Shown in pieces: positions 4,135 through 31,142 of a DNA stretch of 32,000 nucleotides. Every line of letters starts with the position of its first letter. Position 1 is the stretch's first letter. Origin of the DNA: Firmicutes bacterium UBA1393 (GTDB lineage Bacteria > Bacillota > DTU025); the NCBI GenBank assembly GCA_002305255.1, contig DBQN01000065.1, positions 2,529 to 34,528 on the forward strand, given 5' to 3'. The translations under genes and the position numbers were made by a program. The notes below the pieces were generated by a model that did not search any database, was not told the DNA's origin, and saw only the letters and a list, made by a program, of their open reading frames with translations.

Positions 4135-5067
4135 CTAGTTCGCGGCGGCCGCCTGCAGTGTGAGACCGAGCACCTTGGCAGACTGCATCACCGAGAGGAA
4201 CAGAGGAGTGCCCGCCTCCAGCTCGAGCTCGGGATTGGGGCTGAGGAAGCCTCCATCCTTGCCTATCACTGCGAACCTGCGGAGGCTGTCACTGGCTGCT
4301 ACCGTAGCCGCCACGTTGGCCGCGATGGCCGCAGTGTCGACTCCCAGGGTCACCGGAACTGAGTCCATGCCCTCGATGGTCGAGATCTCAACATCGACTC
4401 TGGCCTTCACGCCAGTCTTGGTCGGGCGGACGTTGTCGAGTACCCTGCCCATGACCACCGTGCCCTTTGGCACTACCAGGCGTCCTTCAGCCACGACATC
4501 CTCCATCACGACGAGGCGCACAGCATCGCCCGGACGCGACTTAGATGAGCTGAGCCCTGACTCTATTGCCAATTTGACGAGGGCGCCTTTAGGGAGCAAA
4601 GCGTAGTCCACGTTGGGCTTGCCTCCCGGGATCGTCAGGCTCATCAGCACGTCAAGACGCTGGCCTATGGAGCCCGATCCTCCCGTCCCTAGGATCCTGA
4701 GTTCCGCGTCATCGAGGGCAGGCACTATGGGCCTGTCGACGATGCTTCCGAACACGCTCCACTGTACCGCCTTGAGCTTGAACTTGAGGTTCATGCCGCC
4801 GGCGCGGTCACCCTGGACGAAGTTCCAGCACTGCTCCATCCTCTCGGGAAGGGTACCGGTACCTACCTTCCCGAACACAAGACGCTCTATGATCTCAAGC
4901 CTGTTGACTACCGCACCCTCTTGAATCGACCCGAAAAGCACCTGTTCCATGCCTACAAGTCGCTCAATGGGGCTGACCTGAGCGGCAACATTCATGCCGA
5001 GAGACACGAGTACCACGAGAAGGCAGGACAGAGCCGCTGCCGCGATGTGTGGGAATCCCCTGCGCAT
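4135..5067 (-). CDS. Secreted/periplasmic protein of unknown function
   Basis: 310-aa ORF with GGGAGG (5075-5080) 7 nt upstream of the ATG. The N-terminal hydrophobic signal ends in 'NVAAQ'. Two copies of an 'ERLV..EQ.LFG / ERLVFGKV' motif are followed by a beta-rich C-terminal half ('GDAVRLVVMEDVVAEGRLVVPKGTVVMGRV'). No family recognised. Confidence 0.6.
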   Translation of the reverse strand: MRRGFPHIAAAALSCLLVVLVSLGMNVAAQVSPIERLVGMEQVLFGSIQEGAVVNRLEIIERLVFGKVGTGTLPERMEQCWNFVQGDRAGGMNLKFKLKAVQWSVFGSIVDRPIVPALDDAELRILGTGGSGSIGQRLDVLMSLTIPGGKPNVDYALLPKGALVKLAIESGLSSSKSRPGDAVRLVVMEDVVAEGRLVVPKGTVVMGRVLDNVRPTKTGVKARVDVEISTIEGMDSVPVTLGVDTAAIAANVAATVAASDSLRRFAVIGKDGGFLSPNPELELEAGTPLFLSVMQSAKVLGLTLQAAAAN

Positions 5068-5102: not shown

Positions 5103-6581
5103 TCAGAATCTGATGGTGACCTCGGCCGTAGCAAGGTTCTTTGGCGTTTCGGATGAACCGACTTCCGAGAAATCGATAAGCTTGTAGCCGAGCAAGAGCG
5201 CGGTATCACCCATGAGTTTGTATCCGAAGTCAATTGATGTCACTGTGCGGGTTGCGTCAGCTCCCGACAGGCGGAGGGGTTCGTCGCTGGGCCAGCCGCC
5301 GAGCCCACCCCCGTCGTAGGCGTCGGACTTGGTCCATACCGCCCCGGAGGCGATCAAGTCACGCATGCGCTCGTACCTGTAGCCTGCCTGTAGAAATGCC
5401 GCATCGCCCAACAGGAGTTTGTAATCGATGACCAACGATGCCGTCGTCTGCAGGCTATCCCTCGACGCAGCGGAGCTTGCGCCCCTCTCATACAGCTCGT
5501 AGCCGGCCCTTACCGTCAGGGAGTCACCTGCCACTACGTTGCCGGTGATATCGGGCAGGGAGTATTTCACGTCGACCGACGTGACCGTTTCTTTCACGGC
5601 CTTGCCCGGTTCTGAGGCGGCCTCAGTCACCCTGGTTCCTACCGCGAAGCCGGCTTCATCTCGGTCACCTACGCGGACGCCCACTGCCGCAGACGTCTCA
5701 CGGTTGGACACGGCCTCATCAGTGAAGAAGGCAGCAGACACCTTCAGGATGTCGGCCAGATGCACGTTGGTGGATAGATCGAACCCGCTGCTCTCTGTCT
5801 TCGTAGGGGTCGCGGTCTCCTCGGGCGGGTCAGGCTTTGCCGGCCGTCTCGCCGCCTGGCTCGACAGAGCTACTGCCACGTTGCCTATGGGAGCGGGCAA
5901 CCCCAACTCGAATTGGGGATCAGGCAACGGGGCGGGCGGCTTCACACCCGATGAGAGCTGCGTAAGTATGCGCTCGATATCGCCTACTCCAGCGGCACCG
6001 GGCAACGGTGTCGATGCCGACGCTGCCGCAGTCACAGGCTGCTGTGCGCTGCCGTTTTGAGCGGGTTCCGATGGCACCAACGACAACACCAGGGCCGGCC
6101 CGCCGTTGGCGAGGGCGGCCGTCGACAGATCGAGACGCACCGAGACCGGAGTTCCGAAGCTCTGCCCGAACTCTTGAACCAAACCTGCTAGCAGCGCTGC
6201 CTGGCGCGGCGATACCGAAAGCACGCCGCCGGGGTTGTCATCCAGCCGAAGCGGGCCCTGACCCCCATCACCGTCTTGAGTCATGACCTGAATCACTCTA
6301 GTGACACCCGGGCCACCGATGCGGAGCACTGTGCGCTCGACACTGCTGGTCATCTGCTCGATCGACACGGGGTTGCCTCCGGTGTACAACGTTGCATCGT
6401 CAAGCTCCAACAGACCGCTGAGGCCGAGCTCACGGAGGGCATCGTAGCGCCAGTCGCCGGGATTCACAGGAGCTGACGCGGCGCCGCCTGCGATCACGGC
6501 GCAGGAAACCGATGCAACAACCGCAAGCGCCAAGGCTAACACCACCGCCAGCCCGAACTTGCTGCTGACCTTCGATAACAT
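5103..6581 (-). CDS. Putative outer-membrane beta-barrel protein (possible lipoprotein signal), unknown family
   Basis: ATG at 6581 is preceded by GGAGGTGA and gives a signal peptide 'MLSKVSSKFGLAVVLALALAVVASVSC' (lipobox-compatible 'SVSC'). An SLH-like remnant 'DWRYDALRELGLSGLL' and a P/A-rich middle follow. The C-terminal ~230 aa show an alternating hydrophobic pattern ending in 'TAEVTIRF' (terminal Phe, as in OMP beta-signals). The 98 extra codons of the longest ORF overlap the neighbouring YqgF-like CDS and look non-coding. Confidence 0.6.
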   Translation of the reverse strand: MLSKVSSKFGLAVVLALALAVVASVSCAVIAGGAASAPVNPGDWRYDALRELGLSGLLELDDATLYTGGNPVSIEQMTSSVERTVLRIGGPGVTRVIQVMTQDGDGGQGPLRLDDNPGGVLSVSPRQAALLAGLVQEFGQSFGTPVSVRLDLSTAALANGGPALVLSLVPSEPAQNGSAQQPVTAAASASTPLPGAAGVGDIERILTQLSSGVKPPAPLPDPQFELGLPAPIGNVAVALSSQAARRPAKPDPPEETATPTKTESSGFDLSTNVHLADILKVSAAFFTDEAVSNRETSAAVGVRVGDRDEAGFAVGTRVTEAASEPGKAVKETVTSVDVKYSLPDITGNVVAGDSLTVRAGYELYERGASSAASRDSLQTTASLVIDYKLLLGDAAFLQAGYRYERMRDLIASGAVWTKSDAYDGGGLGGWPSDEPLRLSGADATRTVTSIDFGYKLMGDTALLLGYKLIDFSEVGSSETPKNLATAEVTIRF

Positions 6582-6642
6582 TCGGCGTCCGTCACCTCCG
6601 TTCATCGATTTATGTACCCAGCTATATTCTCCGCATGATGCC

Positions 6643-7056
6643 CTATTCCTGCCCGCCGCGCCGTTGAGCGAAGTACCGAGTGGCCAAAACCTCGGCAACG
6701 TAGTCATCGAAAGGCCGGTCAGGGCTGCGGAGACCGGGAGGAAGGAACCGCGCAATGCCCCTTCCGGGGTTCTCCCTGAGATACCGTTCCCTTCCCTCCA
6801 TGGAAGAGCGATGCTCGTCCACCGTGACCACCGGAACACTGGTGACTTCTCTGAGGCGGCATAGGGTGTCGACACAGGCAGTCCTGTCGCCCACGACTAT
6901 CGTAGTTACCGCGTGTGTCGACATGATGCGGCGTGCGGAGTCGGCAAGCGCAGCAGCAGGCTCAACGCGTCGCGCCAGGAGCCCCCGTGTTGAGCTGACA
7001 ACCGCCATGCCCACCTTGTCCCTTCCGGGGTCGATCGCGAGAACGATCTCTTCTAT
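6643..7056 (-). CDS. YqgF/RuvX-like RNase H-fold nuclease (putative)
   Basis: Blocks 'IVLAIDPGRDKVGMAVV', 'TTIVVGDRT', 'VPVVTVDEHRSSMEGR' and 'DDYVAEVLATRYF' parallel the RuvX/YqgF blocks (DxG..K.iGvAv, ivVG.P, DERlsT.eA, a..iLq.yl). The first canonical start is GTG 7014, which would delete the Asp-containing first strand. An in-frame ATA at 7056 sits 9 nt after GGGAG and 2 codons after an in-frame TGA, so the start is uncertain. Confidence 0.55.
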   Translation of the reverse strand: MEEIVLAIDPGRDKVGMAVVSSTRGLLARRVEPAAALADSARRIMSTHAVTTIVVGDRTACVDTLCRLREVTSVPVVTVDEHRSSMEGRERYLRENPGRGIARFLPPGLRSPDRPFDDYVAEVLATRYFAQRRGGQE

Positions 7057-7127: not shown

Positions 7128-10100
7128 CTAGAACGTGGTCTTCAGAGACAGACCGGCTACGCGCACACCATAGTCGTCAGGTCCACCAGCAGCATACAGC
7201 ACGTTCTTGATGTCGTACTTCAGCGTGAGGCTGGTGTTCTTGTAGAACTTGTGGTTCAGCGCGGCGCCGAACTGCAGGTACTCGCCTGACGGATGCACCG
7301 CCGTCGGAGTCTCGTACGCGCGCGACTCGTAGGACGCGGTTCCGCTCAGCGTGGTGTCAGGACTGAGGTTGAACGTCAGGCCACCGGCCAGTGCCAGACG
7401 AGTCAGGTCGTTGAACTCCTCGTCGTAGCTGGCATGGCTTGTGGGCACGTCGTGAGTCACATCGTAGCCAGCTTCAGCAGTGAGGGTGAGCCTATCCTCG
7501 ATAAGCGGCATGGCCATGTTCAGGCCAGCGCCCCAGATCTGCCACGTCTCAGCGCCGAAGCTCTGCTCCCAACCGCCGCGGAGCTTCAGAGTGTCGCCGC
7601 CGATAGGCGCATCGAGCTTGACATATCCGATGTAGGACATGGCGGGCTCCCAGCTGTCTTCGAAGTGGTTCTTCCAGGTGAAGCCAGCCGATACCGGCAT
7701 GTACTTCAGGTCGAAGCCCAGCTTCGCGACGCCTTCATTCTCCCAGTCCACGATGAACGCGTCGTAGTTGTAGGTTGCGTCAGCGCGGAGGGTCAGCCCG
7801 ATGCCGAGCAGTTGGGCATTGTACTTCACCCCGCCGCCGACCGTTGCGACGTCCTTGGATGCGAAGTCAGCATCACCCTTACGCTGTACCAGACCATTGA
7901 CGACGAACCCGCCGATCGAGTCGGTGACCAGCGTGAGCTTGCTCACCCTGGTATCGGGGGACACGCGGTCGGGATCGCTGCTGGACGTACCGCGGTAGGA
8001 AGGCGCATAGCCCTCGTCCACCTGGACGTGCGACGCCGCGATGTTAACCACGCCGAGCTTGCCGCCGATAGAGAGGTCTCTCGCATACACGAACTCGGTG
8101 GGTTCAGTGCTGAGGAGCTTGCTGTCAAACGCCGACAGCTCTCCACGGGCGCTCCAGGTGTCACTGAGCTTCAGCGATACGTCGGCACCGATGAGGCTCT
8201 CATCCGGATCGTCGCCGCTCGTGTCCTGTGACGGCTCGTCATGCACCTTCACCATGGCGCGCGCGCCAACGGTGATAGCCTCGGTGAGCTGCAACGTTCC
8301 AGCGGCGCCAGCGATGTGCATGTACTCGTAGGTGCTGGCATCGTTGCTGCCGTGCCCGACCTTGGCCACGAAGCCGCTGAGGTCAAGCTTGCCGGCATCA
8401 TGTGTCAACGCAATGCCCTCGATGGCCTTGCTGTTCCATACCTTGGCGCTGGCCTGGTACTTGGTCAGCCCGGCCGGACGAGCGAGCTCGCCAGCGAGGA
8501 TCGTCGTGACACTGTTCGGCGTCACGATGCTCATGTCGAGATCCAGCTTGGGCAGGACGCTGCTTGTGTCGGCAACTCCGAACACATCGGAGAGCAGACC
8601 TATCTGAGCTGTCACCGTAACGCCCGGATCAGGCTGGATGTTGAGCGTCAGCTTCAACTCGTTCTGCATGATAGAAGAGGGTATATACAGATCGTCGTCA
8701 TCGGGATCCGCTACCCTGTTGAACGGGTTCTTGTAGAGATCCGACACCGGAGCACCGGATATCTGCGACATCGCGTTGATATCCTCGAACCTCACCTCGT
8801 TAGAGCCAGTGAGCTTCACGCGGTTCAGCTCGGTCCAGAGGTTGCCGATGCTCGTCTTGTTGGTCGCGATATCAGCCTGCGCGATCTCGGTGTCCCTCTC
8901 CAGCTTGCGCACGCGCTGGGTGATGGGGGCGATCTCCTCGGTTCTGATCGCCGCTATGTCGCGGGCGTTCTGGTCGGCCTTGGCCTCGACCACAGCCAGC
9001 TGAGCCTCGAGATTCGAAACCCGGGCGCTCAATGCGTTGAGTTCCTTCTGGTACTCATCCTTGAGTGCAGCGATGGACGCGACCACCAAGTCGATGCGCG
9101 CTTCGAGATCCTCGCGCAGGGCGATCATGGAGTCGTAGAAGCCCATCTGCATCTCCGCCTTGAGCTGCAACAGGTCGAGATCATGCTGCTCGGCCAGGGC
9201 CTCGAGGGCTCTCTGCCATGCGTCTCTCTCGGCCGCGATGGAGTCGAGGAAGCTCACCTGGAGCTCTGCCCTGAGCTGAGCCAGATCGAGGTCGTGTTTC
9301 TCAGCAAAGGCCTGAAGCGCTCTCTCGCGGGCGTCCCTCTCGGCCGCGATGGAATCATAGAAGCTCATCATGAGTTCGGCCTTCTGCTGAAGCAGGGCTA
9401 CCTCCCAAGTGGCTTCCATGTCGTCGAGCCTCGCGTCGTACGCCGCCTTCATCTCATTGACGGAAGCGGTGTGCATCTCGAGGATCTCGTTACTCTGCGC
9501 CCTAAGCGCGGCCACGAGCTTCTGGTTGAGTTCGTCGGCGGTGGCTGCATTGGCTGCATTGAACTGAGCGATCAATTCAGCCTTCTGTTCGGCCAGGGCC
9601 TGGTCGAAACGCGCCTGGAGCTCGTTGTATCTTGCGTTGAGCTGACTGGTGGAGTTGACCAGCCTCATGTCGATATCGTTGAGCTTGCCGTCGACAACCA
9701 GGGCGGAATCGGCCATCTGGTTGTACACATTGCCGAACCTGGCGTTCGTTTCGGCAGACGACTGAGCCGCCTCGGCCTCAATCTGCGCAAACCGGGCGTC
9801 AACTCCGGCGGCATAGGCCTCGAACTTGCGGTCGACTTCGTCGCGATATGCGTTGAGCGACTCGCGCGCAGCATTGATAATCGCCATGCTGCTGTCGTCA
9901 ATAGCCTTGACCAGCATATCATCGTGACGGGCATCGATAGCAGCGATGATTGCCGCTTCCCTGTCAGCGATGGCCTTCTCAAGGTCAGCCCTGAGGTTGG
10001 CCAGCAGGATGTCGCGGTCAACGTTCGATGCGATAATCGAGTCGTAGAACGCCATCATCACTTCGGCCTTCTGCTGGAGCAGGGCCAACTCGATCTTGGA

Positions 10101-11063
10101 ATCGAGTTCTGCCAGGGCAGCCTCGCGCGCCGCTCTCTCCTCAGCGGCGTGAACAGCTAGCAGCGTGTTGATTGCCGCTTCATAGTCGGGGGCGGACTCG
10201 ACCGGCGTGGCACCGGTTGTCGATATCGTGAGCGCCTCCAACTTCCTGGCGAGCTCAAGGCTGATCTCCTGGTTCTGCTCTTCGGCAGCCTGCGCTTCCT
10301 CGTACAGCGCACGCCTCAGAGCCTCAAGGCGAGCATCGAAGTTGTCGTGGTCTGCCGCGAGCAACTTGATCTGCCCTTCGAGGTTCGCCACGGCTGCCTG
10401 CCATGCAGCGTTGCTCTCTGCTACTGCATCTGCAACCAGCTTCTCGCAACCGGGAAGCGTGGCCACTGACTGCTGCACTTCGGCACCCACAGGAGTGGTG
10501 CAGGACGCGAAATGTGCCTCATTTGCAGCTCTGACAGCCTCTATGGCTGCCCAGAGCTGGGCATGCTCGGCCTTGTTGGCTTCCGTCAGATCATCCACGC
10601 GCGCGAGCAGAGCAGAGAGCCTATCGTCAAACTGCTCCCACTGCGCCTCCGACATGCCGGCGATCTTCTCGGCGATCACTTGCTCGAGTATGGTGGCATC
10701 CGGCGAAGCCACAGGCTGAAGCACCACCCCGTCGGCTGGGCTGGCACTTGAGTCGGGAGCCTGCGTGCCTGAGACCTTGGCGTCAAGCTCGCCTACAGTC
10801 TCAGCGAGACTGCGGATGTCCCTGTCGAGGTACTCCAGGGCCCGGGCGATCATGATCGCCACCTCGTACCTGGTGGCCTGGTTCTTGCCCTGGAAGGTAC
10901 CATCAGGATAGCCCTCGACGATTCCCAGAGCCGCTAGGAGGTTCACGGCGTCCAACGCCCAGTGGTAATCGGGCACGTCTGAGAAAGGCGTGCTCGCCGT
11001 TACTGGGAGCGCCATCATGATCACCATGAGAGCACTCACTAGTATGGCCAGGAATTTCTTCAT
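7128..11063 (-). CDS. SLH-domain / long coiled-coil / C-terminal beta-barrel outer-membrane tether (OmpM/SlpA-like)
   Basis: 1311 aa with SD AAGGGGGG upstream and signal peptide 'MKKFLAILVSALMVIMMALPVTAS'. One SLH domain is present ('FSDVPDYHWALDAVNLLAALGIVEGYPDGTFQGKNQATRYEVAIMIARAL', about 10824-10991). About 650 aa of A/E/L/Q/D-rich heptad-like sequence follow (aa ~85-750). The last ~560 aa have an alternating beta pattern with aromatic girdle residues and end in 'GLSLKTTF'. Confidence 0.85.
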   Translation of the reverse strand: MKKFLAILVSALMVIMMALPVTASTPFSDVPDYHWALDAVNLLAALGIVEGYPDGTFQGKNQATRYEVAIMIARALEYLDRDIRSLAETVGELDAKVSGTQAPDSSASPADGVVLQPVASPDATILEQVIAEKIAGMSEAQWEQFDDRLSALLARVDDLTEANKAEHAQLWAAIEAVRAANEAHFASCTTPVGAEVQQSVATLPGCEKLVADAVAESNAAWQAAVANLEGQIKLLAADHDNFDARLEALRRALYEEAQAAEEQNQEISLELARKLEALTISTTGATPVESAPDYEAAINTLLAVHAAEERAAREAALAELDSKIELALLQQKAEVMMAFYDSIIASNVDRDILLANLRADLEKAIADREAAIIAAIDARHDDMLVKAIDDSSMAIINAARESLNAYRDEVDRKFEAYAAGVDARFAQIEAEAAQSSAETNARFGNVYNQMADSALVVDGKLNDIDMRLVNSTSQLNARYNELQARFDQALAEQKAELIAQFNAANAATADELNQKLVAALRAQSNEILEMHTASVNEMKAAYDARLDDMEATWEVALLQQKAELMMSFYDSIAAERDARERALQAFAEKHDLDLAQLRAELQVSFLDSIAAERDAWQRALEALAEQHDLDLLQLKAEMQMGFYDSMIALREDLEARIDLVVASIAALKDEYQKELNALSARVSNLEAQLAVVEAKADQNARDIAAIRTEEIAPITQRVRKLERDTEIAQADIATNKTSIGNLWTELNRVKLTGSNEVRFEDINAMSQISGAPVSDLYKNPFNRVADPDDDDLYIPSSIMQNELKLTLNIQPDPGVTVTAQIGLLSDVFGVADTSSVLPKLDLDMSIVTPNSVTTILAGELARPAGLTKYQASAKVWNSKAIEGIALTHDAGKLDLSGFVAKVGHGSNDASTYEYMHIAGAAGTLQLTEAITVGARAMVKVHDEPSQDTSGDDPDESLIGADVSLKLSDTWSARGELSAFDSKLLSTEPTEFVYARDLSIGGKLGVVNIAASHVQVDEGYAPSYRGTSSSDPDRVSPDTRVSKLTLVTDSIGGFVVNGLVQRKGDADFASKDVATVGGGVKYNAQLLGIGLTLRADATYNYDAFIVDWENEGVAKLGFDLKYMPVSAGFTWKNHFEDSWEPAMSYIGYVKLDAPIGGDTLKLRGGWEQSFGAETWQIWGAGLNMAMPLIEDRLTLTAEAGYDVTHDVPTSHASYDEEFNDLTRLALAGGLTFNLSPDTTLSGTASYESRAYETPTAVHPSGEYLQFGAALNHKFYKNTSLTLKYDIKNVLYAAGGPDDYGVRVAGLSLKTTF
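9084..9380 (-). repeat. Intragenic tandem 111-nt (37-aa) repeats in the coiled-coil region
   Basis: Unit 1 is aa 562-598 'AELMMSFYDSIAAERDARERALQAFAEKHDLDLAQLR' and unit 2 is aa 599-635 'AELQVSFLDSIAAERDAWQRALEALAEQHDLDLLQLK'. A partial third unit reads 'AEMQMGFYDSMIALREDLEAR'. DNA copies share strings such as ctctcggccgcgatgga. A more distant copy, 'LALLQQKAEVMMAFYDSI', lies at aa ~326-343 (about 10035-10088). Confidence 0.7.
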
Positions 11064-11249
11064 GTACTGTTCCCCCCTTATTCGTACTCAACGCTAAGGC
11101 TAACCTGAACGGGGTGCCATACCGAGTGGTCATGTTTCCTCGCGCAGCGCCCTGCCCACGTCAGCCGATGCGTGTCTCTGTGGCAGCCCGAGGGATCACT
11201 GATAAACCCGCCTCAAGCTGCGAGTATCCGCGCTCGACAAAGTGCACAG

Positions 11250-11342: not shown

Positions 11343-12698
11343 CTATTCAGCTATGAGCCTTATGGATGCGGAGGTGCTTGCGCGCCATATGTCAGTACCT
11401 GCCACAGCCTTCACCGTCTTCACTGCCCTGGAGTTGATCACCGCGACGATGGCGTTTGAGAATTCAGAGACGCTTAGAAGTGTCCCGATCTTGCCTTCCT
11501 CGTCGGAAGGCATTCCCTCGGCAATGAGAATGCTGTTGACCTGCTGCACGAGGGCAAGCAGGCTGGCCTGGACGCGGTCGGCGCCGGCGGCCCCGTCTAT
11601 CAGCGCAGACGCTATGACCTGGCCCTCTGAGTAGATCTTCTTGTCTGGATACACATGAAGCGATACCATCAGCGGCTCACCGCTCCAGGTGTTCACCGGA
11701 GATATGGCCCTGAGGACCACCCTATCAGACGACTCGTCGATCTTCTGGAAGGCGGCGAGCACATTTGCCTCTTCAAAGCTGAGGGTGAACTGATCGCCGT
11801 CGTCCCGGGCCGAGCGGGCCCCCCTACTCTGCGCCACGTCGTTTACTCTCAGAAGGAACGCGTTAACCTGCTCCTGGACGACCTGGGCAGGCTGTGAGCA
11901 GTCGATAATGGCTCCGAGCACCACCTCGTCAGCGCGGAAGATCACCTTGCCCCACATGGACAGCTGCCCTGCTTCCCACAGCAGTTCAGCACTGCGTTGT
12001 GTAGTCTCAGTCAGGGTACTCTCAAGCGTGGCGACTTCCTTCGCCAGCATGTCCCGGGTCTGAGTCAAGGCTTCGACCCGCTCAGTCTGTACTCTCTGCT
12101 CCTCTTCCAGCGCAGCAATATCCACCCGCGCGTTCTCAAGGTCGGCCGCGGCTGCCTCAAGCTGCGCGGACACGCCATCAAGATCTGACTCCATCTTCTG
12201 AAGCCTGCTGGATGCCTCAACCAGCCTGCCCTCTGAGTCTTTCAGGCGAGACTGGAGCATCGACAACTCATCGAGAGCGAGACCTCGCTCCTCAGATACG
12301 CGTGCTAGCTCGGCAACCGCACGATCATATTCGGACTGGAGATCCTCTCGCTCCTTGGCCATCTTGTCAACCTGCATTGACAGCTCATCTACCTGAGCTC
12401 TCTTAGCTTCCAGATCGGAAGTTGCCGTGGCCAGCGAGTCCTGAATCTCCTTTATCTCGAACAGTGCCGTCCTCACATTGTCGGAGGCGAGGGAAAGCAG
12501 AATGATGGAGCAGCCTGCGATCATCACGCCGGTCATGATAGTGACAATCATAGACGTGTACCTGGGGCGCAGGCCGAACATGGACAGCCTCTTTCGACCG
12601 ACCTTCATTCCGATGCGGTCACCAACGTAGGCTATGACTCCTCCTGCAATCGCCAGCACGACTATGAGGGGAAAACCATACACACGCCATCCCTCCAC
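11343..12698 (-). CDS. DUF3084-like membrane-anchored coiled-coil protein
   Basis: 451 aa. Two N-terminal TM helices flank the basic loop 'GDRIGMKVGRKRLSMFGLRPRYTS', the signature I associate with DUF3084. An ~170-aa heptad-rich segment follows ('LEAKRAQVDELSMQVDKMAKEREDLQSEYDRAVAELARV...'), then a ~200-aa globular C-terminus. The start is 16 nt after the lptB stop. Confidence 0.6.
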   Translation of the reverse strand: MEGWRVYGFPLIVVLAIAGGVIAYVGDRIGMKVGRKRLSMFGLRPRYTSMIVTIMTGVMIAGCSIILLSLASDNVRTALFEIKEIQDSLATATSDLEAKRAQVDELSMQVDKMAKEREDLQSEYDRAVAELARVSEERGLALDELSMLQSRLKDSEGRLVEASSRLQKMESDLDGVSAQLEAAAADLENARVDIAALEEEQRVQTERVEALTQTRDMLAKEVATLESTLTETTQRSAELLWEAGQLSMWGKVIFRADEVVLGAIIDCSQPAQVVQEQVNAFLLRVNDVAQSRGARSARDDGDQFTLSFEEANVLAAFQKIDESSDRVVLRAISPVNTWSGEPLMVSLHVYPDKKIYSEGQVIASALIDGAAGADRVQASLLALVQQVNSILIAEGMPSDEEGKIGTLLSVSEFSNAIVAVINSRAVKTVKAVAGTDIWRASTSASIRLIAE

Positions 12699-13653: not shown

Positions 13654-14889
13654 CTAGCCAGGCACGCTTGAACGAATACCCTGTATCACAGCATCAGCCG
13701 CCCCCGGCAGCCCAACCGTCTCTTTCAGTCCCCTGGCCACCCTGTCGGCGGCGGCTGGATCACCGATCATCTCCACCACGGGGATGACTACGTCTTCCGG
13801 CCTGACTGAGCCCACAACCTCACGAGCGACGTCTCTGCCAGCCCTCATGTTTGGCCCTGACACGAGCACCGATCCGCCCGCCGGCTGCGATCGTGTCGCG
13901 ACGGCTCGCACCTGGCTCAGCATTCTCGCCCATCGACCGCCCCGCCTCGATACCAGGCCACGGGGAGCTACTACTATGTAAGGCACCCCCGCGTAAGCCA
14001 GCTCGTGGCAGAGGGGTCCGGGAACCGTCAGGACTGCGTCACAGCTGTAAAGGGCAGAGTGGTCGGGCCCAACATCAATGGGCACACGAACGCCCTCCTC
14101 GGTGATCAAAGTGAACGGCACCGCGCTGCGGTCTATTGAGGCAGCGGCGGCATCACTTCGAGCAGATCTTGATGTCGGCTTGAAGACGCTGTCGAGAGAA
14201 GCGGTACCAATGAACGGCGACAGCCGCAGTATGAACGAGGTGCCCCGCTCAACCCTGGCAAGCAATCCAGCTGCTTTGAGCATGAACGGGCCCATCTGAC
14301 GAGCCTCGCGAAGGCCGTCGCCCGGAAACAACCCGATTACCTTCACGGATCCGTCGCTTCTGTTTGCCACGGCCGACGCCGGCTCTCTCAACCCTGAGCT
14401 GCGCTCCATGGTGGCTGCAACGTCCAGACACAGATCGCCCACGACTCGCACCGAAGCGGGGGCCGCACCGCCAGCAATGAGAGCAGCTTGTACGCGCTCG
14501 TCTTCCACAAGGTACAGTGCTGACCCCCTTGGTACCACTGGATACTCGCGCGAGACGTAGTGAATAAGTGGATACCTCAGTCTCCTAGCCAGCGCCGCCG
14601 CAAAGCCCGAGTCACCGCCGAGGTTCACCACTACACCGCGCCCCGACACCGTGAATCCCCGTGGCCTCAGTCCCACGTAGGCCGTGTTCCATGCCTCACG
14701 GGGGCCGAATGCGCGCCTCACACCCCTGTAGGTAGAGGCAATGCGCACTTCACGGGCAAGAGCCTGCGATCCGGGCGAAGAGAACACCCATATGTCAGCC
14801 GCGGAGAACGCCAGAGCAGCCCTGTACGCCACAGGCCGTACAAGGCTGTTCATCTCTGCCGGACCGCCGGTCACCAGGACTATATCCAA
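13654..14889 (-). CDS. LpxB-like (GT19 lipid-A-disaccharide synthase-related) glycosyltransferase, divergent
   Basis: The block order parallels LpxB: 'IVLVTGGPAEM' (vs 'vaGE.SGD'), 'GGDSGFAAALARRLRYPLIHYVS' (vs 'D.PdFn..la..lk..gi..ihYvsP'), 'IGLFPGDG' (vs 'lLPGSR'), 'CDAVLTVPGPLCHELAYAGVPYIVV' and 'GPNMRAGRDVAREVV' (vs 'lpNllag..v.pEl'). TTG at 14889 has GAGGTGG 7 nt upstream. The longest ORF starts at TTG 14919. Confidence 0.55.
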   Translation of the reverse strand: MDIVLVTGGPAEMNSLVRPVAYRAALAFSAADIWVFSSPGSQALAREVRIASTYRGVRRAFGPREAWNTAYVGLRPRGFTVSGRGVVVNLGGDSGFAAALARRLRYPLIHYVSREYPVVPRGSALYLVEDERVQAALIAGGAAPASVRVVGDLCLDVAATMERSSGLREPASAVANRSDGSVKVIGLFPGDGLREARQMGPFMLKAAGLLARVERGTSFILRLSPFIGTASLDSVFKPTSRSARSDAAAASIDRSAVPFTLITEEGVRVPIDVGPDHSALYSCDAVLTVPGPLCHELAYAGVPYIVVAPRGLVSRRGGRWARMLSQVRAVATRSQPAGGSVLVSGPNMRAGRDVAREVVGSVRPEDVVIPVVEMIGDPAAADRVARGLKETVGLPGAADAVIQGIRSSVPG

Positions 14890-14936
14890 GACGCGACCAC
14901 CTCGTCCTACCGGGCACAATGCCCTTGGACGGAATT

Positions 14937-15701
14937 CTACAACGCAGCTACGTTTTCCTTCAGTGGAGCTGCCGCATAGGCCAGGGCACGCGCGTAGCGC
15001 CTCCCCACGTCTGACAAGGGGTTCGCGAGCACCGCGTCAGGGGCACCCTGTTCGACTACGGCGCCTGCCTCCATCAGGACGATGTTGTGCGCTGCTCTCA
15101 GCGCGAAGCCGATCTCGTGAGTCACGACCACCATGGTGGCCTCCAGTGTCCTCGAGAGCCGCTCCATCAAGCTTAGCACGTCCACCACCAGCGTGGGGTC
15201 GAGTGATGCCGTCGGTTCATCCCACAGGATCAGCGACGGATGATCGGCAATGGCCCTGGCAATGGCCACTCTCTGCATCTCACCGCCCGACAGTCCCCGC
15301 ACATCTTCATCAGCTCTGGAGTCCATGCCCACCTCAGCCAGAGCTCGCATCGACAGGTCGTGAGCCTCGTCCACTGACTTGCCCACGGCCACCATCGGCA
15401 GCATGACATTTCGCACGACATTGAGACGGGAGATGAGGTTCGATCTCTGAAACACCAGTCCCACTCCTCGCCTGAACCTCTCCAGCTGAGACTGGGACAT
15501 GGCAGTAACGTCTTCGCCCATCCACGTCACCTGCCCAGAATTCGGCTCCACTAGGCGGATTATGCTCCTGAGCGCTGTGGACTTGCCGCAGCCCGACGGC
15601 CCCATTACCGCCACGACGGAACCCGTAGGCACCTCCAAGCTGAATCCATCGAGGGCCCTTCCACTCGGGAACGTTACCGTCACGTCTTGCATTCTGAGCA
15701 T
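14937..15701 (-). CDS. ABC transporter ATP-binding protein, polar-amino-acid (HisP/GlnQ) class
   Basis: Walker A 'GPSGCGKST', Q-loop 'LVFQ', signature 'LSGGEMQRVAIARA', Walker B 'LILWDEPTASLDP', and the class-typical 'VVVTHEIGFA...GAPDAVLANP'. ATG 15701 has AAGGGAGGTG 7 nt upstream and overlaps the preceding CDS by 22 nt. The 52 extra N-terminal codons of the longest ORF look non-coding. Confidence 0.9.
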   Translation of the reverse strand: MLRMQDVTVTFPSGRALDGFSLEVPTGSVVAVMGPSGCGKSTALRSIIRLVEPNSGQVTWMGEDVTAMSQSQLERFRRGVGLVFQRSNLISRLNVVRNVMLPMVAVGKSVDEAHDLSMRALAEVGMDSRADEDVRGLSGGEMQRVAIARAIADHPSLILWDEPTASLDPTLVVDVLSLMERLSRTLEATMVVVTHEIGFALRAAHNIVLMEAGAVVEQGAPDAVLANPLSDVGRRYARALAYAAAPLKENVAAL

Positions 15702-23469: not shown

Positions 23470-25194
23470 CTAGAAGGTTTGGCCGAAGCTGAAGTAGAGC
23501 TGGCCGCCTTGCTTGCTGATACCATAGTCCACCCTGATGGTGCCTAGCACAGGCACGTTCAGACGGACTCCGACGCCATAGCCGATCTTGGTGTTCTTGA
23601 TGTCGAGCGACTCACCGGCGTTCCAGGCCTGCCCGGCATCGACGAAAGCCACGCCCTGCAGGCTGTCGATGATCCTGAATCTGTACTCGGCGTTGGCATA
23701 TGCCATCCTGTCGCCTTCGAGATCACCGTACTTGTAGCCGCGAACGGTTTCCGCCCCGCCGAGGATGAACCTCTCCTGCTCGGGAAGGGGCGTCAGTCCC
23801 CATCCTCCACTCACCCTGCCGGCCAGCACGTGGCCATCGTGAATCTGGACATATCCTGCGCCTTCGGCCTGAACCTTGGTGAAGCTGTAGTCGCCTCCGA
23901 GGATTCCACCGGCATACTCAATGGATCCCGAAAGCCTATGCCCATCGGATGGGTTCCACAGGTCGTTTCTGGCGTCGTTCACTGCCGACAGCGTGATTGA
24001 ACGGGTGATGCCGCCTGCCGGCAAGCCTTCGGGTCCCGCAGGATCTGACGTGGTGTTCACCACGTTGTCCATCTTCAGCTTGAGGAACACCTTGGTGTTC
24101 AGCGACAGGCTGGTGCCGAGGCTCACGTCAGCGCCTGTGCGCCTCTGCGAATACGGTATGGTGACCGGATCCTCGCCCTCGCCACCCTCTGACTCAGGCG
24201 TGTATTTCTTGTCAGCAGTCTTGTTATACAGATTGAGGCCGAGGGACATCTTGCCCGTCTTGCCCAGCCAGGGTTCGAAGAAGCCCAGCTCATAGTTGGC
24301 CTTGCCCCAGCCGAACTCGGCCTTGGCATTGATCCTCTGTGCGTTGCCGAGGAAGTTCTCATCTCCTAGCTCCAGATAGCCCATGATGCCAGTTGAGGAG
24401 CTATAGCTGAGGTTGATGTTGGCGACACCGGTCTTCCTCTCGGTGAAAATGTAAGTGACCGTGAACTCAGGCTTGCCTGCCACGGGCTCAACCTTTGCCT
24501 GCACGTCCTCGAAGGCACCCAGCATGTACAGGGCACGGCGGTCGTTGTTTATCTTGGCGACATCGATGAACTCGCCTTCCTTAAGGGATATGGAGCGCCT
24601 GGCCACAGCAGGCTTGGTCTTGCCCAGTCCTTCGAGCTTAATCTCTGACACCGTCCACTCCACAAGGTGTACGGCAAGCTCTGCGTCTCCCTGCAGGGAT
24701 GGCTCAATGCTCACCCAGTAGCCCTTGTCGCTGTAGAGCTTCGAGATCTTCTCAAGATCAGACCTGAGTGTGGCTGCGTTAAGCTGCTCACCGGCTCGGG
24801 TTGTCATGAGTGCAGCAAGCTCATCGGTGGGAATCAGCTGATTGCCGGCAATGCTCACACTCTTCAGCACGGGAAACTCCCTTACCACGAAGATGAGTTT
24901 GAGTCCCCCGAGATACTGAACGGTGTTAGCATTCAAGTCGGAGAACCAGCCCATGCTGTCGAGTCTTGCGAAGGTCTCGTTGACGGCCTCTTCGGTTATG
25001 TCGTCACCGATCTTCAATGTGACTTGCTTGAGAATAGTCTCGCTATCGATCCTGCTGTTGCCTTGCACCTCGACGGCAGTAAGCTTGCCCAACGACTTCG
25101 ATTGGGCGGCCAGCGCGGGAACAGCGGCTAGTGTGACGGCCATGGCGACCATAACAACGATGCTGCAAACCTTCCTGGCGCAGAATGAGTTCAT
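23470..25194 (-). CDS. bamA: BamA/Omp85-family outer membrane protein assembly factor (about three POTRA repeats + barrel)
   Basis: ATG 25194 has GGGAGGGAG upstream and gives the signal 'MNSFCARKVCSIVVMVAMAVTLAAVPALAAQ'. A POTRA-like start 'LTAVEVQGNSRIDSETILKQVTLKIGDDITEEAV' follows. The Omp85 barrel end reads 'RFILGGAETVRGY', 'AFVDAGQAW', 'GYGVGVRLNVPVLGTIRVDYG', terminal 'FSFGQTF'. Confidence 0.9.
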   Translation of the reverse strand: MNSFCARKVCSIVVMVAMAVTLAAVPALAAQSKSLGKLTAVEVQGNSRIDSETILKQVTLKIGDDITEEAVNETFARLDSMGWFSDLNANTVQYLGGLKLIFVVREFPVLKSVSIAGNQLIPTDELAALMTTRAGEQLNAATLRSDLEKISKLYSDKGYWVSIEPSLQGDAELAVHLVEWTVSEIKLEGLGKTKPAVARRSISLKEGEFIDVAKINNDRRALYMLGAFEDVQAKVEPVAGKPEFTVTYIFTERKTGVANINLSYSSSTGIMGYLELGDENFLGNAQRINAKAEFGWGKANYELGFFEPWLGKTGKMSLGLNLYNKTADKKYTPESEGGEGEDPVTIPYSQRRTGADVSLGTSLSLNTKVFLKLKMDNVVNTTSDPAGPEGLPAGGITRSITLSAVNDARNDLWNPSDGHRLSGSIEYAGGILGGDYSFTKVQAEGAGYVQIHDGHVLAGRVSGGWGLTPLPEQERFILGGAETVRGYKYGDLEGDRMAYANAEYRFRIIDSLQGVAFVDAGQAWNAGESLDIKNTKIGYGVGVRLNVPVLGTIRVDYGISKQGGQLYFSFGQTF

Positions 25195-25286
25195 CAGTCT
25201 CCCTCCCATGATTGGCCCCAACCGCCGCATATCACAGCGTACAGAGGCGCTGATCGGCAAAATGATTGTCCACAAGCATTCCGTGT

Positions 25287-27221: not shown

Positions 27222-27337
27222 GATGCCTAATACGCGATGACTAACAACATCCCTGCTTGCGTATGGAAGTGAAATGGATGCATTGCGGGTATACACTGGT
27301 AAGACTGGCCATTCAGGCTATGCCATGACTCCACTCT

Positions 27338-29182: not shown

Positions 29183-29195
29183 GGCGTCTCTTTAA

Positions 29196-30167
29196 TCATA
29201 CACCTGCAGCGACATTTGTCACTTGCGGAATGTCGCACTCGGCCATGTACAGGAGTCCCCTGGCCGCCGCAAGTTGCGGATCATCTGCCAATCGGCACCC
29301 CACCCCGGCATGCTCTGCCACATGCGCCGCGAACATGTGCTGCAGCGCTCCCCCGCCCGCCAGAATCACCTCGTCGCATCCCCACCTTGACCGTGCAGCA
29401 CCGAGCGAATGCCCCACTGACCTGGCGAGGCTTTCCACTGCGGCATCGATGAGCACATCCGGTACCTCGGCGTCGGTTGGAAAACACGTGCCCACATGGC
29501 AGCCGCGCACACGAATGCCTCGCTCGCCCGGGCGTAGATCGTTTCTGGCTTCCCTTGCCCTCCTCGCCTCCGAGAAACCGACCCTGATCCCCAGCTCCTC
29601 CCTAATCCTTCGCTGCACGTCTCGGTCGACACTGCTCATCCCTGACCGCTCGCGCCCACTCCACACCACCGCTCCCATCTGAATCGTGGCGATGTGCACG
29701 CGCTCGGCGCCTACATCGGTGACGATGGTGTCACGGTCGATGGCACCGGCACCCATACACACCGCCAACGGCGACTGCACGATGGCGACGGGCTTCAGCC
29801 CGGCGTCTGACGCAAGCTGGAACATGGTTCGTATGTCGAGCACCGTAGGAGCCGCAGGTGCGAGGAGCACCGCCCTGGGCACCGCAAGCCTCTTTCTGCC
29901 GCACAGCTCCCGTGCTACGGCACTGAGTACATAGAGAGCCAACGGGCGCCGGAGTGAGTCGCCCCACGCGCCAGTGGCCGCCAGATGGTAACGAGCCGGG
30001 TCGCGCAAGAGCATCGCCATGGCGCCCGTGCCCCATCCCGCTGCGTAGCCCGTGCTCCTCTCCACCGCCACCACGGAAGGTGCAGAAATGACGACTCCGC
30101 GTCCGGGAGCAACTGCAACCACGTTCGCGGAGCCCAGATCAATGCCTATGTCAAATCGCCGCCGCAT
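29196..30167 (-). CDS. Divergent MreB/Mbl-family actin-like protein (nucleotide-binding motifs partly degenerate)
   Basis: ATG 30167 (GGAGGG 6 nt upstream) gives 'MRRRFDIGIDLGSANVVAVAPGRGVVISAPSVVAV' (MreB phosphate-1 block). 'EVILAGGGALQHM' and 'DDPQLAAARG' are retained. The canonical 'DIGGGTTE' block reads 'DVGAERVH'. The position after spoIIID matches spoIIID-mbl/mreB synteny. Confidence 0.7.
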   Translation of the reverse strand: MRRRFDIGIDLGSANVVAVAPGRGVVISAPSVVAVERSTGYAAGWGTGAMAMLLRDPARYHLAATGAWGDSLRRPLALYVLSAVARELCGRKRLAVPRAVLLAPAAPTVLDIRTMFQLASDAGLKPVAIVQSPLAVCMGAGAIDRDTIVTDVGAERVHIATIQMGAVVWSGRERSGMSSVDRDVQRRIREELGIRVGFSEARRAREARNDLRPGERGIRVRGCHVGTCFPTDAEVPDVLIDAAVESLARSVGHSLGAARSRWGCDEVILAGGGALQHMFAAHVAEHAGVGCRLADDPQLAAARGLLYMAECDIPQVTNVAAGV

Positions 30168-30186
30168 CGAGTTCCCTCCGCCGCGC

Positions 30187-30444: not shown

Positions 30445-30455
30445 GCAGCGCCCGG

Positions 30456-30506: not shown

Positions 30507-30521
30507 GCGCTACAGTCGGGT

Positions 30522-31118: not shown

Positions 31119-31142
31119 GCTCGATCACCTCAGGTGGTATTA

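What the first reader, a model, noticed from the sequence alone, without database searches (positions are those of the whole stretch)
7128..11063. Giant SLH / ~650-aa coiled-coil / ~560-aa beta-barrel protein: an oversized OmpM/SlpA-type OM-to-peptidoglycan tether
Seen: one SLH domain directly follows the signal peptide. About 650 residues of heptad-like A/E/L/Q/D-rich sequence come next, then a long alternating-pattern region ending in Phe. Established: OmpM of Negativicutes and SlpA of Thermus/Deinococcus use SLH + coiled-coil stalk + barrel to staple the OM to the cell wall, and OmpM-type proteins are far shorter overall. An alpha-helix rises about 0.15 nm per residue. Inference: a continuous coiled coil of this length would be on the order of 90-100 nm, far beyond a normal periplasm. 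The stalk must therefore fold back, lie obliquely, or form a lattice under the OM, or the envelope is unusually wide. Either option would be structurally novel.
Basis: partly seen in the sequence, partly recalled or inferred. Interest (0 to 1): 0.7.

Follow-up and report, generated by a model that had tools for sequence, protein, structure and literature searches.

The report
Giant long-stalked OmpM/SlpA-type outer-membrane tether
This gene encodes an unusually long version of a known protein that ties the outer membrane to the cell wall; its roughly 60-90 nm helical stalk, built from a 37-residue repeat, points to a very wide or oddly organised envelope in an uncultured two-membrane Bacillota lineage.

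Summary
The ORF at 7128-11063 (- strand, 1311 aa) is real. It has a strong ribosome-binding site, about 30 full-length homologue clusters (36-76% identity) and conserved synteny inside an Lpt/BamA/Skp outer-membrane cluster. Its layout is: signal peptide, one SLH domain (closest solved relative Veillonella OmpM1), a Pro/Ser linker, a highly conserved helical module, two loop-interrupted helices, a 420-residue proline-free helix, a short heptad neck with an OmpM-like junction, and a barrel of about 28 strands ending in Phe. D. radiodurans SlpA is the best structural match to the barrel. The OmpM/SlpA-type reading is therefore supported.

Two details are wrong. The stalk is not heptad-like: its hydrophobic periodicity is 3.69, against almost no signal at 3.50. 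That periodicity comes from a 37-residue tandem repeat of 10 helical turns, present in 1-8 recognisable copies across homologues. The helical region is also modular rather than one 650-residue coil.

Family stalks span 515-710 residues. Distant barrel relatives have shorter, heptad-type stalks. Whether the rod is extended (about 68 nm, up to 90 nm), tilted, folded back or part of a lattice could not be decided; only monomer models were possible. I rate it a new variant of a known kind.

The parts
7128..11063 (-). Complete ORF, 1311 aa plus stop: giant SLH / helical stalk / beta-barrel protein
   Evidence: ORF; about 30 full-length homologue clusters, 36-76% identity; conserved synteny
11071..11079 (-). 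Shine-Dalgarno AAGGGGGGA, 7 nt upstream of the ATG; it lies within a 279-nt intergenic region upstream of the gene
   Evidence: read directly from the sequence
10995..11063 (-). Sec signal peptide, aa 1-23 (MKKFLAILVSALMVIMMALPVTAS)
   Evidence: Read from the sequence; aligns with the OmpM1 signal peptide
10818..10994 (-). Single SLH domain, aa 24-82, carrying W35, GIVEG (47-51) and TRYE (64-67)
   Evidence: Pfam PF00395 E 1.3e-13; family profile against PDB gives OmpM1 8BYS domain E 6e-23 and SlpA 7ZGX 1.7e-15
10704..10817 (-). Short helix after the SLH domain (to about aa 98), then a Pro/Ser-rich linker predicted non-helical (aa 99-120)
   Evidence: AF2 secondary structure; Pro at 103, 109, 117 and 121
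10512..10703 (-). Highly conserved helical module, aa 121-184 (PDATILEQVIAEKIAGMSEAQWEQFDDRLSALLARVDDL...), with about 19 family-invariant residues
   Evidence: Invariant columns; similar segments seen by eye in distant relatives P0171, P0173 and P0174; weakly aligned to SlpA
10188..10511 (-). Interrupted helical region, aa 185-292: Cys188...Cys206 loop, helices about 206-238 and 242-282, and a Pro-containing loop at 283-292
   Evidence: AF2 secondary structure, with pLDDT blocks 64-81 here, the highest of the N-terminal model together with 653-723; Pro, Cys and Gly positions
8928..10187 (-). Proline-free helical rod, aa 293-712 (420 aa), hydrophobic periodicity 3.69; register discontinuity near aa 450-457
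9051..9383 (-). Three consecutive 37-residue repeats, aa 561-671 (motif KAELxMxFYDSI...); a further isolated copy starts at aa 332
   Evidence: DNA-level 111-bp tandem repeat at 9127-9367 (2.2 copies, 76% matches)
8973..9083 (-). OmpM-type coil motif, about aa 661-697 (VASIAALKDEYQKELNALSARVSNLEAQLAVVEAKAD)
   Evidence: The family profile aligns this segment to OmpM1 residues 87-122 (13.7 bits, domain E 0.086, recovered in 8BYS and 8BYM); the correspondence to window residues was made by eye
8808..8927 (-). Neck, aa 713-752: conserved Pro713, then a heptad-type segment (periodicity 3.50) ending in the junction NRVKLTGS
   Evidence: best period 3.50 for 715-750
7131..8807 (-). C-terminal outer-membrane beta-barrel, aa 753-1311, about 28 strands, C-terminal signal ...LSLKTTF
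   Evidence: AF2 mean pLDDT 82.4 with 28 strand elements; Foldseek top hits SlpA 7ZGX, 8AGD and 8AE1, and the other listed hits are also OM barrels

Best explanation
The gene encodes an OmpM/SlpA-type connector between the outer membrane and peptidoglycan, in an uncultured two-membrane, spore-forming Bacillota lineage that is probably related to Limnochordia.

Proposed mechanism:
1. The protein is exported by Sec.
2. Its C-terminal barrel of about 28 strands is inserted into the outer membrane by the BamA/Skp machinery encoded 12 kb away.
3. Three chains associate in parallel, as in OmpM1 and SlpA. This builds a three-fold SLH module that binds peptidoglycan or a wall polymer.
4. Between the SLH module and the barrel lies a very long alpha-helical rod. 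Unlike known relatives, the rod is not heptad-based. It is built from a 37-residue unit of 10 helical turns (periodicity 3.70, that is 11+11+15), which predicts a slightly right-handed supercoil.
5. Repeat copy number varies between homologues, so the rod can act as a ruler adjustable in steps of about 5.5 nm.

My preferred geometry is an extended or tilted parallel trimeric rod. That gives about 62-68 nm for residues 293-752, and up to about 90 nm if the N-terminal helices are collinear. Such a rod would hold the outer membrane unusually far from the wall.

Shown here: domain identities, helicity, periodicity, the repeat architecture, the barrel and the genomic context. Inferred: trimer state, parallel extended geometry, the ligand and the spacer role.
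For: Identity:
- SLH domain: Pfam E 1.3e-13.
- Family profile against PDB: the best hits are OmpM1 8BYS (1.1e-27) and SlpA 7ZGX (1.7e-15). An OmpM coil motif is also aligned.
- Barrel model pLDDT 82.4 with 28 strands; SlpA is the top Foldseek hit at 2.9e-10.
- The family ends in an invariant L-K-T-x-F.
- Neighbouring genes are LptB/A/C, an LptFG-LptD fusion, BamA and Skp, and the order is conserved in L010.
- This is the only SLH protein in the window and in each related locus.
- It meets the published OmpM definition of SLH plus beta-barrel (bioRxiv 10.1101/2021.05.31.446380).

Rod:
- AF2 predicts helices at 291-450, 458-589 and 594-747.
- Proline-free runs are 421 aa here and up to 546 aa in homologues.
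- Periodicity is 3.68-3.71 in 26 of 27 family members (z = 6-24), with negligible power at 3.50.
- The phase of that periodicity is steady over about 448-690.
- The 37-mer consensus fits a 10-turn core far better than heptad models: core occupancy 0.78 against 0.40-0.42.
- The spacing variant of 44 residues (37+7, which equals 4x11) keeps the periodicity near 3.67.
- Copy number runs from 1 to 8 and stalk length from 515 to 710 aa. Single-unit insertions and deletions are easy to tolerate in a straight rod and hard to tolerate in a hairpin bundle.
- The 111-bp DNA repeat shows tandem duplication.

Precedents for long spacers: the SlpA stalk is 28-29 nm in a 121-nm periplasm, and Omp-alpha is about 45 nm (PMC9388160).
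Against: - No multimer model could be run. The monomer AF2 model of the stalk has low confidence (pLDDT 58, pTM 0.30) and breaks the rod at 451-457 and 590-593.
- The hydrophobic phase jumps by about 90 degrees near residue 450, so the rod has at least two segments.
- The repeat carries a second hydrophobic stripe (L32, L35, A2', M6', Y9'). That stripe could mediate back-folding or lateral contacts.
- The OmpM1 stalk has an experimentally observed compact alternative conformation (PMC10628300).
- Cultured Limnochordia cells are only 0.15-0.30 um wide (PMC11456536). That leaves little room for a 70-90 nm radial gap if this organism is similarly thin.
- The taxonomy of the source is only approximate: the best named MetK hits are Bacillota MAGs at 77% and a Limnochordales MAG at 68%.
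Confidence: 0.55

Rival explanations
1. The protein is the same OmpM/SlpA-type tether, but the stalk is folded back. The long helices (about 293-450, 458-589 and 594-750) and the N-terminal helices pack into antiparallel bundles, so the effective OM-PG spacing is an ordinary 20-30 nm. The extra helix mass then acts as a rigid or elastic periplasmic body, possibly able to switch between compact and extended states.
For: - AF2 places low-confidence breaks at 451-457 and 590-593, giving three helices of similar length (160, 132 and 154 aa).
- The hydrophobic phase jumps at about residue 450.
- The repeat has a second hydrophobic stripe.
- pLDDT of 64-81 over 193-283 suggests a packed hairpin at 206-238 / 242-282.
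- Foldseek hits of the stalk model are helical bundles, though none is significant.
- A compact stalk state is known for OmpM1 (PMC10628300).
Against: - There is no phase change at 590-593, and that site lies inside a repeat that reads WEVA/WELA in homologues.
- Homologues carry up to 7 consecutive repeat units and proline-free runs up to 546 aa with one coherent 3.70 period.
- Repeat number varies by single units, which would unbalance an antiparallel bundle.
Confidence: 0.25
2. The protein is the same, but the rods lie obliquely or tangentially between the outer membrane and the wall. They associate side by side through the second hydrophobic stripe and form a periplasmic lattice under the outer membrane, rather than acting as radial spacers.
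For: - Two hydrophobic stripes about 135 degrees apart occur in each 37-mer (my geometric reading of the consensus, plus the strong k=13 and k=17 harmonics).
- The stalk-barrel junction is known to be flexible in OmpM1, where the stalk is tilted (PMC10628300).
- Cultured Limnochordia cells are thin.
Against: There is no direct evidence for lateral contacts. The stripe covers only about 15 residues of each 37-residue repeat. Known relatives (SlpA, OmpM1) have free-standing trimeric stalks.
Confidence: 0.15
3. It is not a periplasmic tether. Either it is a surface S-layer or adhesin-type fibre whose helical region is exposed outside the cell, or the C-terminal region is not a membrane barrel at all.
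For: [quoted passage not shown] S-layers have been seen on cultured Limnochordia (PMC11456536).
Against: - The barrel is confidently predicted, and the top structural hits are OM barrels.
- The protein has a C-terminal Phe signal and BamA/Skp/Lpt neighbours.
- The domain order SLH, coil, junction, barrel is collinear with OmpM1, where the stalk is periplasmic.
- SLH ligands are wall-bound.
Confidence: 0.03

Closest known systems
OmpM1 of Veillonella parvula (PDB 8BYS/8BYM/8BYT; Negativicutes OmpM)
   Same: It shares the signal peptide plus single SLH domain (83.7 bits, domain E 6e-23), the coil motif (OmpM1 L..EF..EL..LGVRV..LE), a similar coil-barrel junction (N-V-K-V-T-G in OmpM1, R-V-K-L-T-G here) and a C-terminal OM barrel. 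Both genes sit in the outer-membrane gene cluster of a two-membrane Firmicute.
   Different: OmpM1 is about 430 aa, with a coil of roughly 40 residues and 16 strands (PMC10628300). This protein has about 670 residues between SLH and barrel and about 28 strands. Roughly 580 residues, including the 37-residue repeat rod, sit between the SLH domain and the OmpM-type motif.
SlpA of Deinococcus radiodurans / Thermus (PDB 7ZGX, 8AE1)
   Same: Both have the tripartite SLH / long stalk / very large barrel layout. SlpA barrels have 28 or 30 strands, and SlpA is the best structural match to this barrel (E 2.9e-10, TMq 0.41). The SLH domain and first stalk segment align (1.7e-15). SlpA has a proposed spacer role in a wide periplasm.
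   Different: The SlpA stalk is about 200 residues (28-29 nm) and heptad-based with two beta-layers, and its barrel is about 900 aa with insertions. Here the stalk is about three times longer with a 3.70 periodicity, and the barrel is about 560 aa. No barrel sequence similarity was detected (domain score -1.4).
Omp-alpha (with Omp-beta) of Thermotoga maritima
   Same: [quoted passage not shown] One distant relative was auto-annotated 'Outer membrane protein alpha precursor'.
   Different: Omp-alpha ends in a transmembrane helix, and its barrel partner is a separate protein. Here the barrel is fused to the rod, and the rod is longer.
Right-handed hendecad/pentadecad coiled coils (e.g. the roughly 70-nm tetrabrachion stalk of Staphylothermus; YadA-type stalks). 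This comparison rests on my own knowledge plus the periodicity theory in PMC4786415.
   Same: The periodicity is above 3.63 (here 37/10 = 3.70, lying between 11/3 and 15/4), which predicts right-handed supercoiling. The rod is also very long and would define an envelope compartment.
   Different: There is no sequence relationship. Oligomer state and handedness were not determined here. Tetrabrachion is an archaeal S-layer protein, not an OM barrel protein.

Membership tests
OmpM/SlpA-like OM-PG connectors (SLH + OM beta-barrel; definition of Witwinowski et al.) | Sec signal peptide followed by a single N-terminal SLH domain | tested here: met
   Pfam PF00395 at aa 26-69, E 1.3e-13; profile against OmpM1 8BYS gives domain E 6e-23
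OmpM/SlpA-like OM-PG connectors | SLH ligand-binding motifs (conserved W, G-[IV]-x-x-G, TRYE/TRAE) | tested here: met
   W35, G47-IVE-G51 and T64-R-Y-E67 are present, and most are invariant in the family. The motif list comes from PMC9388160.
OmpM/SlpA-like OM-PG connectors | C-terminal outer-membrane beta-barrel with a C-terminal aromatic signal | tested here: met
   AF2 pLDDT 82.4 with 28 strand elements; the top Foldseek hits are OM barrels, led by SlpA; the protein ends ...LSLKTTF with F invariant
OmpM/SlpA-like OM-PG connectors | Alpha-helical coiled-coil stalk between the SLH domain and the barrel | tested here: met
   The region is predicted helical with a significant amphipathic periodicity. 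The OmpM coil motif aligns weakly (13.7 bits, domain E 0.086) but does so in both full-length OmpM1 entries, 8BYS and 8BYM.
OmpM/SlpA-like OM-PG connectors | Homotrimer in which three chains together form the SLH module | not testable with these tools
   Only monomer predictions were possible. The single SLH domain was modelled with pLDDT below 50 in the monomer. That is compatible with a need for trimerisation, but it is not a test.
OmpM/SlpA-like OM-PG connectors | Binds peptidoglycan or a secondary cell-wall polymer and tethers the outer membrane | not testable with these tools
   This needs sacculus-binding or deletion experiments.
OmpM/SlpA-like OM-PG connectors (two-membrane Firmicutes) | Gene embedded in the conserved outer-membrane (Lpt/Bam) cluster | tested here: met
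   LptB, LptA, LptC, an LptFG-LptD fusion, BamA and Skp all lie in the window. The same order is found in L010.
OmpM sensu stricto (Negativicutes porin type) | 16-stranded porin barrel and a short (about 40-residue) stalk | tested here: not met
   The barrel has about 28 strands and the stalk is about 670 residues. The reference values come from PMC10628300.
SlpA (Deinococcus-Thermus) | Barrel homologous to the SlpA barrel; heptad stalk with beta-layers | tested here: not met
   No barrel sequence match was found (domain score -1.4). There is only fold-level similarity (TMq 0.41). Stalk periodicity is 3.70, and the heptad-plus-nonad model fits poorly.
Omp-alpha (Thermotogae) | SLH plus coiled coil ending in a C-terminal transmembrane helix, with the barrel on a separate protein | tested here: not met
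   The barrel is fused in the same ORF.

The most novel reading that the evidence does not exclude
This uncultured Bacillota lineage has an ultra-wide periplasm or intermembrane compartment, at least about 60-90 nm. Its width is set by a parallel trimeric, right-handed (37/10) coiled-coil ruler fused to a 28-stranded barrel. The length of that ruler is tuned in evolution by adding or removing 37-residue units of about 5.5 nm. This would be the longest OM-PG spacer known and the first built on a non-heptad repeat.
Probability: 0.3. Interest if true: 0.75.

Novelty: new variant of a known kind. Interest (0 to 1): 0.6.

Why it matters
OmpM/SlpA-type connectors are proposed to be the ancestral way of attaching the outer membrane in Terrabacteria, and they are central to models of how Firmicutes lost that membrane. 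The stalk in this family is about three times longer than the SlpA stalk and about fifteen times longer than the OmpM1 stalk. It is built from a copy-number-variable 37-residue unit with a right-handed-type periodicity.

That gives a directly testable link between a sequence-encoded ruler and envelope geometry: does OM-wall spacing scale with repeat number? If the rod is extended, these digester and subsurface Bacillota have an envelope unlike any described Firmicute. If it is folded or forms a lattice, it is a new kind of periplasmic scaffold. The 37/10 rod would also be a useful natural example for coiled-coil structural biology.

Tried and rejected
- A single-sequence Kyte-Doolittle Fourier scan was too noisy because the stalk is alanine-rich. 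I replaced it with a binary large-hydrophobic scale and a family-averaged profile.
- I considered a beta-layer reading, because MAFYDS resembles the [aliphatic]-A-T-K-polar-[DE] motif of PMC4786415 and 37 = 4x7+9. I rejected it as the main model. The 10-turn pattern gives core occupancy 0.78 against 0.40-0.42 for heptad models, the k=10 harmonic is 0.70 against 0.20 for k=11, and AF2 keeps the motif helical. It is not strictly excluded without a trimer model.
- The single-protein scan of genome contigs found nothing. The alignment-based scan found 9 MAG loci.
- Foldseek on the low-confidence stalk model gave no significant hits.
- The promoter/terminator scan found nothing on the gene's strand.
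- Pfam scans of the unknown neighbours gave nothing usable.
- A literature search for a described long-stalk OmpM in Limnochordia found none.
- Exact taxonomy (GTDB placement of the DTU025 and UBA5389 MAGs) could not be established.
- I rejected the reading of a monoderm S-layer protein, because of the barrel and the Lpt/Bam context.

Full report
**Observation.** The window holds a 1311-codon ORF at exactly 7128-11063 on the - strand. An AAGGGGGGA Shine-Dalgarno lies 7 nt before the ATG, after a 279-nt intergenic gap. The long antisense ORFs inside it, such as the 639-aa ORF at 8241-10160 (+), are most likely by-products of the 61% G+C content and alanine-rich coding (my inference). The gene is real. 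An indexed search of 5.8 billion proteins found about 30 clusters of full-length homologues, 1129-1347 aa long and 36-76% identical. [quoted passage not shown]

**Anatomy**.
- aa 1-23: Sec signal peptide.
- aa 24-82: one SLH domain (Pfam E 1.3e-13) carrying W35, GIVEG and TRYE.
- aa 83-98: short helix.
- aa 99-123: Pro/Ser-rich linker predicted non-helical.
- aa 121-184: helical module that is the most conserved part of the stalk, with about 19 invariant residues. Similar segments are visible by eye in distant relatives, and it aligns weakly to D. radiodurans SlpA.
- aa 185-292: helices interrupted by a Cys188...Cys206 loop and a Pro loop.
- aa 293-712: 420 residues without a single proline, predicted helical.
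- aa 713-752: conserved Pro713, then a heptad-type neck ending in NRVKLTGS.
- aa 753-1311: beta-barrel. The AF2 model built with the family alignment has mean pLDDT 82.4 and 28 strand elements. An even strand count fits both termini being periplasmic. The protein ends ...LSLKTTF, and L, K, T and F are invariant.

**Relationship to known proteins.** A profile of the family searched against all PDB sequences hits V. parvula OmpM1 best (8BYS 1.1e-27; SLH domain 83.7 bits), then D. radiodurans SlpA (7ZGX 1.7e-15), then Bacillus Sap SLH domains.

A second, weak match was recovered in both full-length OmpM1 entries. It aligns the OmpM1 coiled coil (AMINRLADEFSNELNNLGVRVSRLEDRVGNVKVTGD) to the family segment that I map to aa 661-697 here. 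The coil-to-barrel junction also looks alike: NRVKLTGS here and GNVKVTGD in OmpM1. SlpA carries the same motif, ELAADLAALGVRVSDLEA.

Foldseek of the barrel model against the PDB puts SlpA first (7ZGX 2.9e-10, TMq 0.41; also 8AGD and 8AE1). The hits that follow are other large OM barrels such as MtrB, LptD, ushers and TonB-dependent receptors. No barrel sequence similarity to SlpA was detectable.

By the published definition 'SLH domain plus beta-barrel' (bioRxiv 10.1101/2021.05.31.446380), this is an OmpM-type protein. By strand number it resembles SlpA, which has 28 or 30 strands (PMC9388160). The stalk is helical in all relatives, but in this family it has a different periodicity (see below).

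**Context.** All genes in the window lie on the - strand.
- Upstream of the giant gene: a DUF3084 membrane/coiled-coil protein, an LptB-like ATPase, two unknown ORFs and a second ABC ATPase, LptA, LptC and an LptF/G permease fused to an LptD-like region.
- Further upstream: Skp, BamA, a SpoIVB-like peptidase, an MreB-like protein, an M23 peptidase and SpoIID.
- Downstream: a small ORF at the position of a weakly RuvX-annotated gene in L010, a candidate small OMP, an unknown ORF, MetK and RecD2.

The same order recurs around a 55%-identical homologue on a 148-kb contig. An SLH profile finds no other SLH protein in the window or in any related locus. The organism is therefore a two-membrane, LPS-making, sporulation-gene-bearing member of the Bacillota. 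The best named MetK relatives are Bacillota MAGs (77%) and a Limnochordales MAG (68%). Placement near Limnochordia is an inference, not a demonstrated result.

**The stalk is not heptad-like.** Pattern searches show a 37-residue tandem repeat with consensus KAELTMAFYDSIQALKDENEQRFAALEEKWELALLEQ. This protein has four recognisable copies (starting at aa 332, 561, 598 and 635), and homologues have up to eight. Spacings are 37, occasionally 44 (= 37+7), or multiples. The last three copies here are still visible as a 111-bp DNA tandem repeat at 9127-9367.

Large hydrophobic residues occupy positions 4, 8, 12, 15, 19, 23, 26, 30 and 34. That is 10 core steps per 37 residues (3,4,4 / 3,4,4 / 4,3,4,4 = 11+11+15), giving a periodicity of 3.70.
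- The discrete spectrum of the consensus has power 0.70 at 37/10 and only 0.20 at 37/11.
- Heptad-based registers place hydrophobic residues at only 40-42% of core positions, against 78% for the 10-turn model.
- On the actual protein, residues 293-712 give a sharp peak at 3.69 (power 3.95, z = 9.1; 0 of 500 shuffles reached the observed peak) and 0.13 at 3.50.
- The same 3.68-3.71 peak appears in 26 of 27 family members, with z up to 24, over proline-free runs of 250-545 residues.
- The phase of the stripe is steady from about 448 to 690 and drifts only slowly from about 304 to 448. It jumps by about 90 degrees near 450-457 (DSALVVDG), where AF2 also breaks the helix. There is no phase change at AF2's second break, 590-593.
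- Only the neck (715-750) is heptad-like, with a best period of 3.50; the short helix after the SLH domain (65-98) gives no clear preference (best period 3.58-3.66).

According to coiled-coil theory, periodicities above about 3.63 give right-handed supercoiling, with 11/3 = 3.67 and 15/4 = 3.75 as the classic cases (PMC4786415).

MAFYDS resembles the beta-layer motif [aliphatic]-A-T-K-polar-[DE], and 37 = 4x7+9. [quoted passage not shown] The periodicity fits argue against it, but only a trimer model could exclude it.

**Distribution.** An exhaustive HMMER scan of 1.84 billion representative proteins with the barrel found only 14 matches. Besides the family itself, these include five complete, more distant proteins (P0170, P0171, P0173, P0174 and P0176; 845-1114 aa; 24-29% identity) with the same SLH / linker / helical stalk / barrel layout, read by eye from the sequences, but shorter stalks. 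Those stalks have near-heptad periodicities of 3.52-3.59. Within the family the stalk measures 515-710 residues and the barrel 514-560. The 37-residue, 3.70-period rod is thus a lineage-specific elaboration of an already long-stalked OmpM-like group.

**How it most likely works.** By homology with OmpM1 and SlpA, the barrel is inserted by BAM, three chains associate in parallel, and the three single SLH domains form one three-fold wall-binding module. The protein then tethers the outer membrane to peptidoglycan or an attached polymer. All of these steps are inferred from homology.

The rod is the distinctive part. At about 0.148 nm per residue, aa 293-752 would be about 68 nm long, and about 90 nm if the N-terminal helices are collinear. 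Each repeat adds about 5.5 nm. For comparison, the SlpA stalk is 28-29 nm in a 121-nm periplasm, and Omp-alpha is about 45 nm (PMC9388160).

I favour an extended or tilted parallel rod, for four reasons:
- the hydrophobic seam is phase-coherent over hundreds of residues;
- prolines are excluded;
- repeat number changes by single units;
- both ends of the molecule are three-fold and parallel.

This preference is not strong. The monomer AF2 model is poor (pLDDT 58). There is one register break. Each repeat also has a second hydrophobic stripe about 135 degrees from the main seam, which could mediate back-folding or lateral association. OmpM1 itself has a compact alternative stalk (PMC10628300). 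Cultured Limnochordia are only 0.15-0.30 um wide (PMC11456536). The fold-back and tangential-lattice readings therefore remain live rivals.

**Verdict.** The 'heptad-like continuous 650-residue coil' needs correcting to a modular stalk whose core is a rod of about 420-460 residues with 37/10 periodicity. I rate it a new variant of a known kind (an OmpM/SlpA-type tether), uncharacterised, restricted to uncultured Bacillota, and of moderate to high interest. It offers a sequence-encoded, copy-number-variable ruler against which envelope geometry can be tested.

Noticed in passing
window 19522-22827 (-): A 1101-aa ORF fuses an LptF/LptG-type permease (aa 6-355, E 1.6e-88) to a region with LptD_N/OstA and DUF3769 (cyanobacterial LptD-like) matches. 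A comparably long LptF_LptG gene (1089 aa) is present in locus L010. This looks like an unusual inner-membrane permease fused to a periplasmic bridge or LptD-like region.
   Followed up: partly
window 5103-6875 (-), probable true start near 6578: This ORF has a signal-peptide-like start (MLSKVSSKFGLAVVLALALAVVASVSCAV), no Pfam or NCBIfam match, and a beta-rich C-terminal ~230 aa ending ...VTIRF. It is a candidate small outer-membrane barrel lying downstream of the giant gene, separated from it only by a small ORF. A 492-aa ORF occupies the same position in L010.
   Followed up: partly
window 11343-12698 (-): A DUF3084 protein (N-terminal membrane segment, a coiled coil of about 170 aa, and a C-terminal domain) lies immediately upstream of the giant gene, both here and in L010. 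It could be an inner-membrane partner of the long stalk. This was not tested.
   Followed up: no
window 15680-18052, 13654-14919, 25287-27296 and 4135-5067 (all -): Four ORFs (790, 421, 669 and 310 aa) within the Lpt/Bam cluster have no usable family match even at E 0.5. ORFs of similar size (811, 414 and 309 aa) occupy the corresponding positions in L010 for three of them; the 669-aa ORF lies outside the part of L010 examined. The 790-aa ORF overlaps the adjacent ABC ATPase ORF, so its true start is probably later.
   Followed up: partly
window 22865-31985 (-): Skp and BamA lie next to a SpoIVB-like S55 peptidase, an MreB-like protein, an M23 peptidase and SpoIID. Outer-membrane biogenesis genes and sporulation genes are thus interleaved, as expected for a spore-forming two-membrane Firmicute.
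   Followed up: partly
window 8241-10160 (+) and 7293-8231 (+): Very long antisense ORFs (639 and 312 aa) lie inside the giant gene. I judge them to be by-products of the high G+C content and alanine-rich repetitive coding, not genes.
   Followed up: no
window about 10446-10502 (-), aa 188-206: Cys188 and Cys206 flank a Pro/Gly-containing loop in an otherwise cysteine-free stalk. A similar pair (C199/C205) occurs only in the closest homologues. This could be a periplasmic disulfide, within or between chains.
   Followed up: partly
proteins P0170, P0171, P0173, P0174, P0176: This is a wider, uncharacterised group of proteins (845-1114 aa) that share the SLH / linker / helical stalk / barrel layout and have heptad-type stalks. 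P0171 is auto-annotated 'Outer membrane protein alpha precursor'. Long-stalked OmpM-like proteins therefore seem more widespread in uncultured Bacillota than the literature I searched describes.
   Followed up: partly
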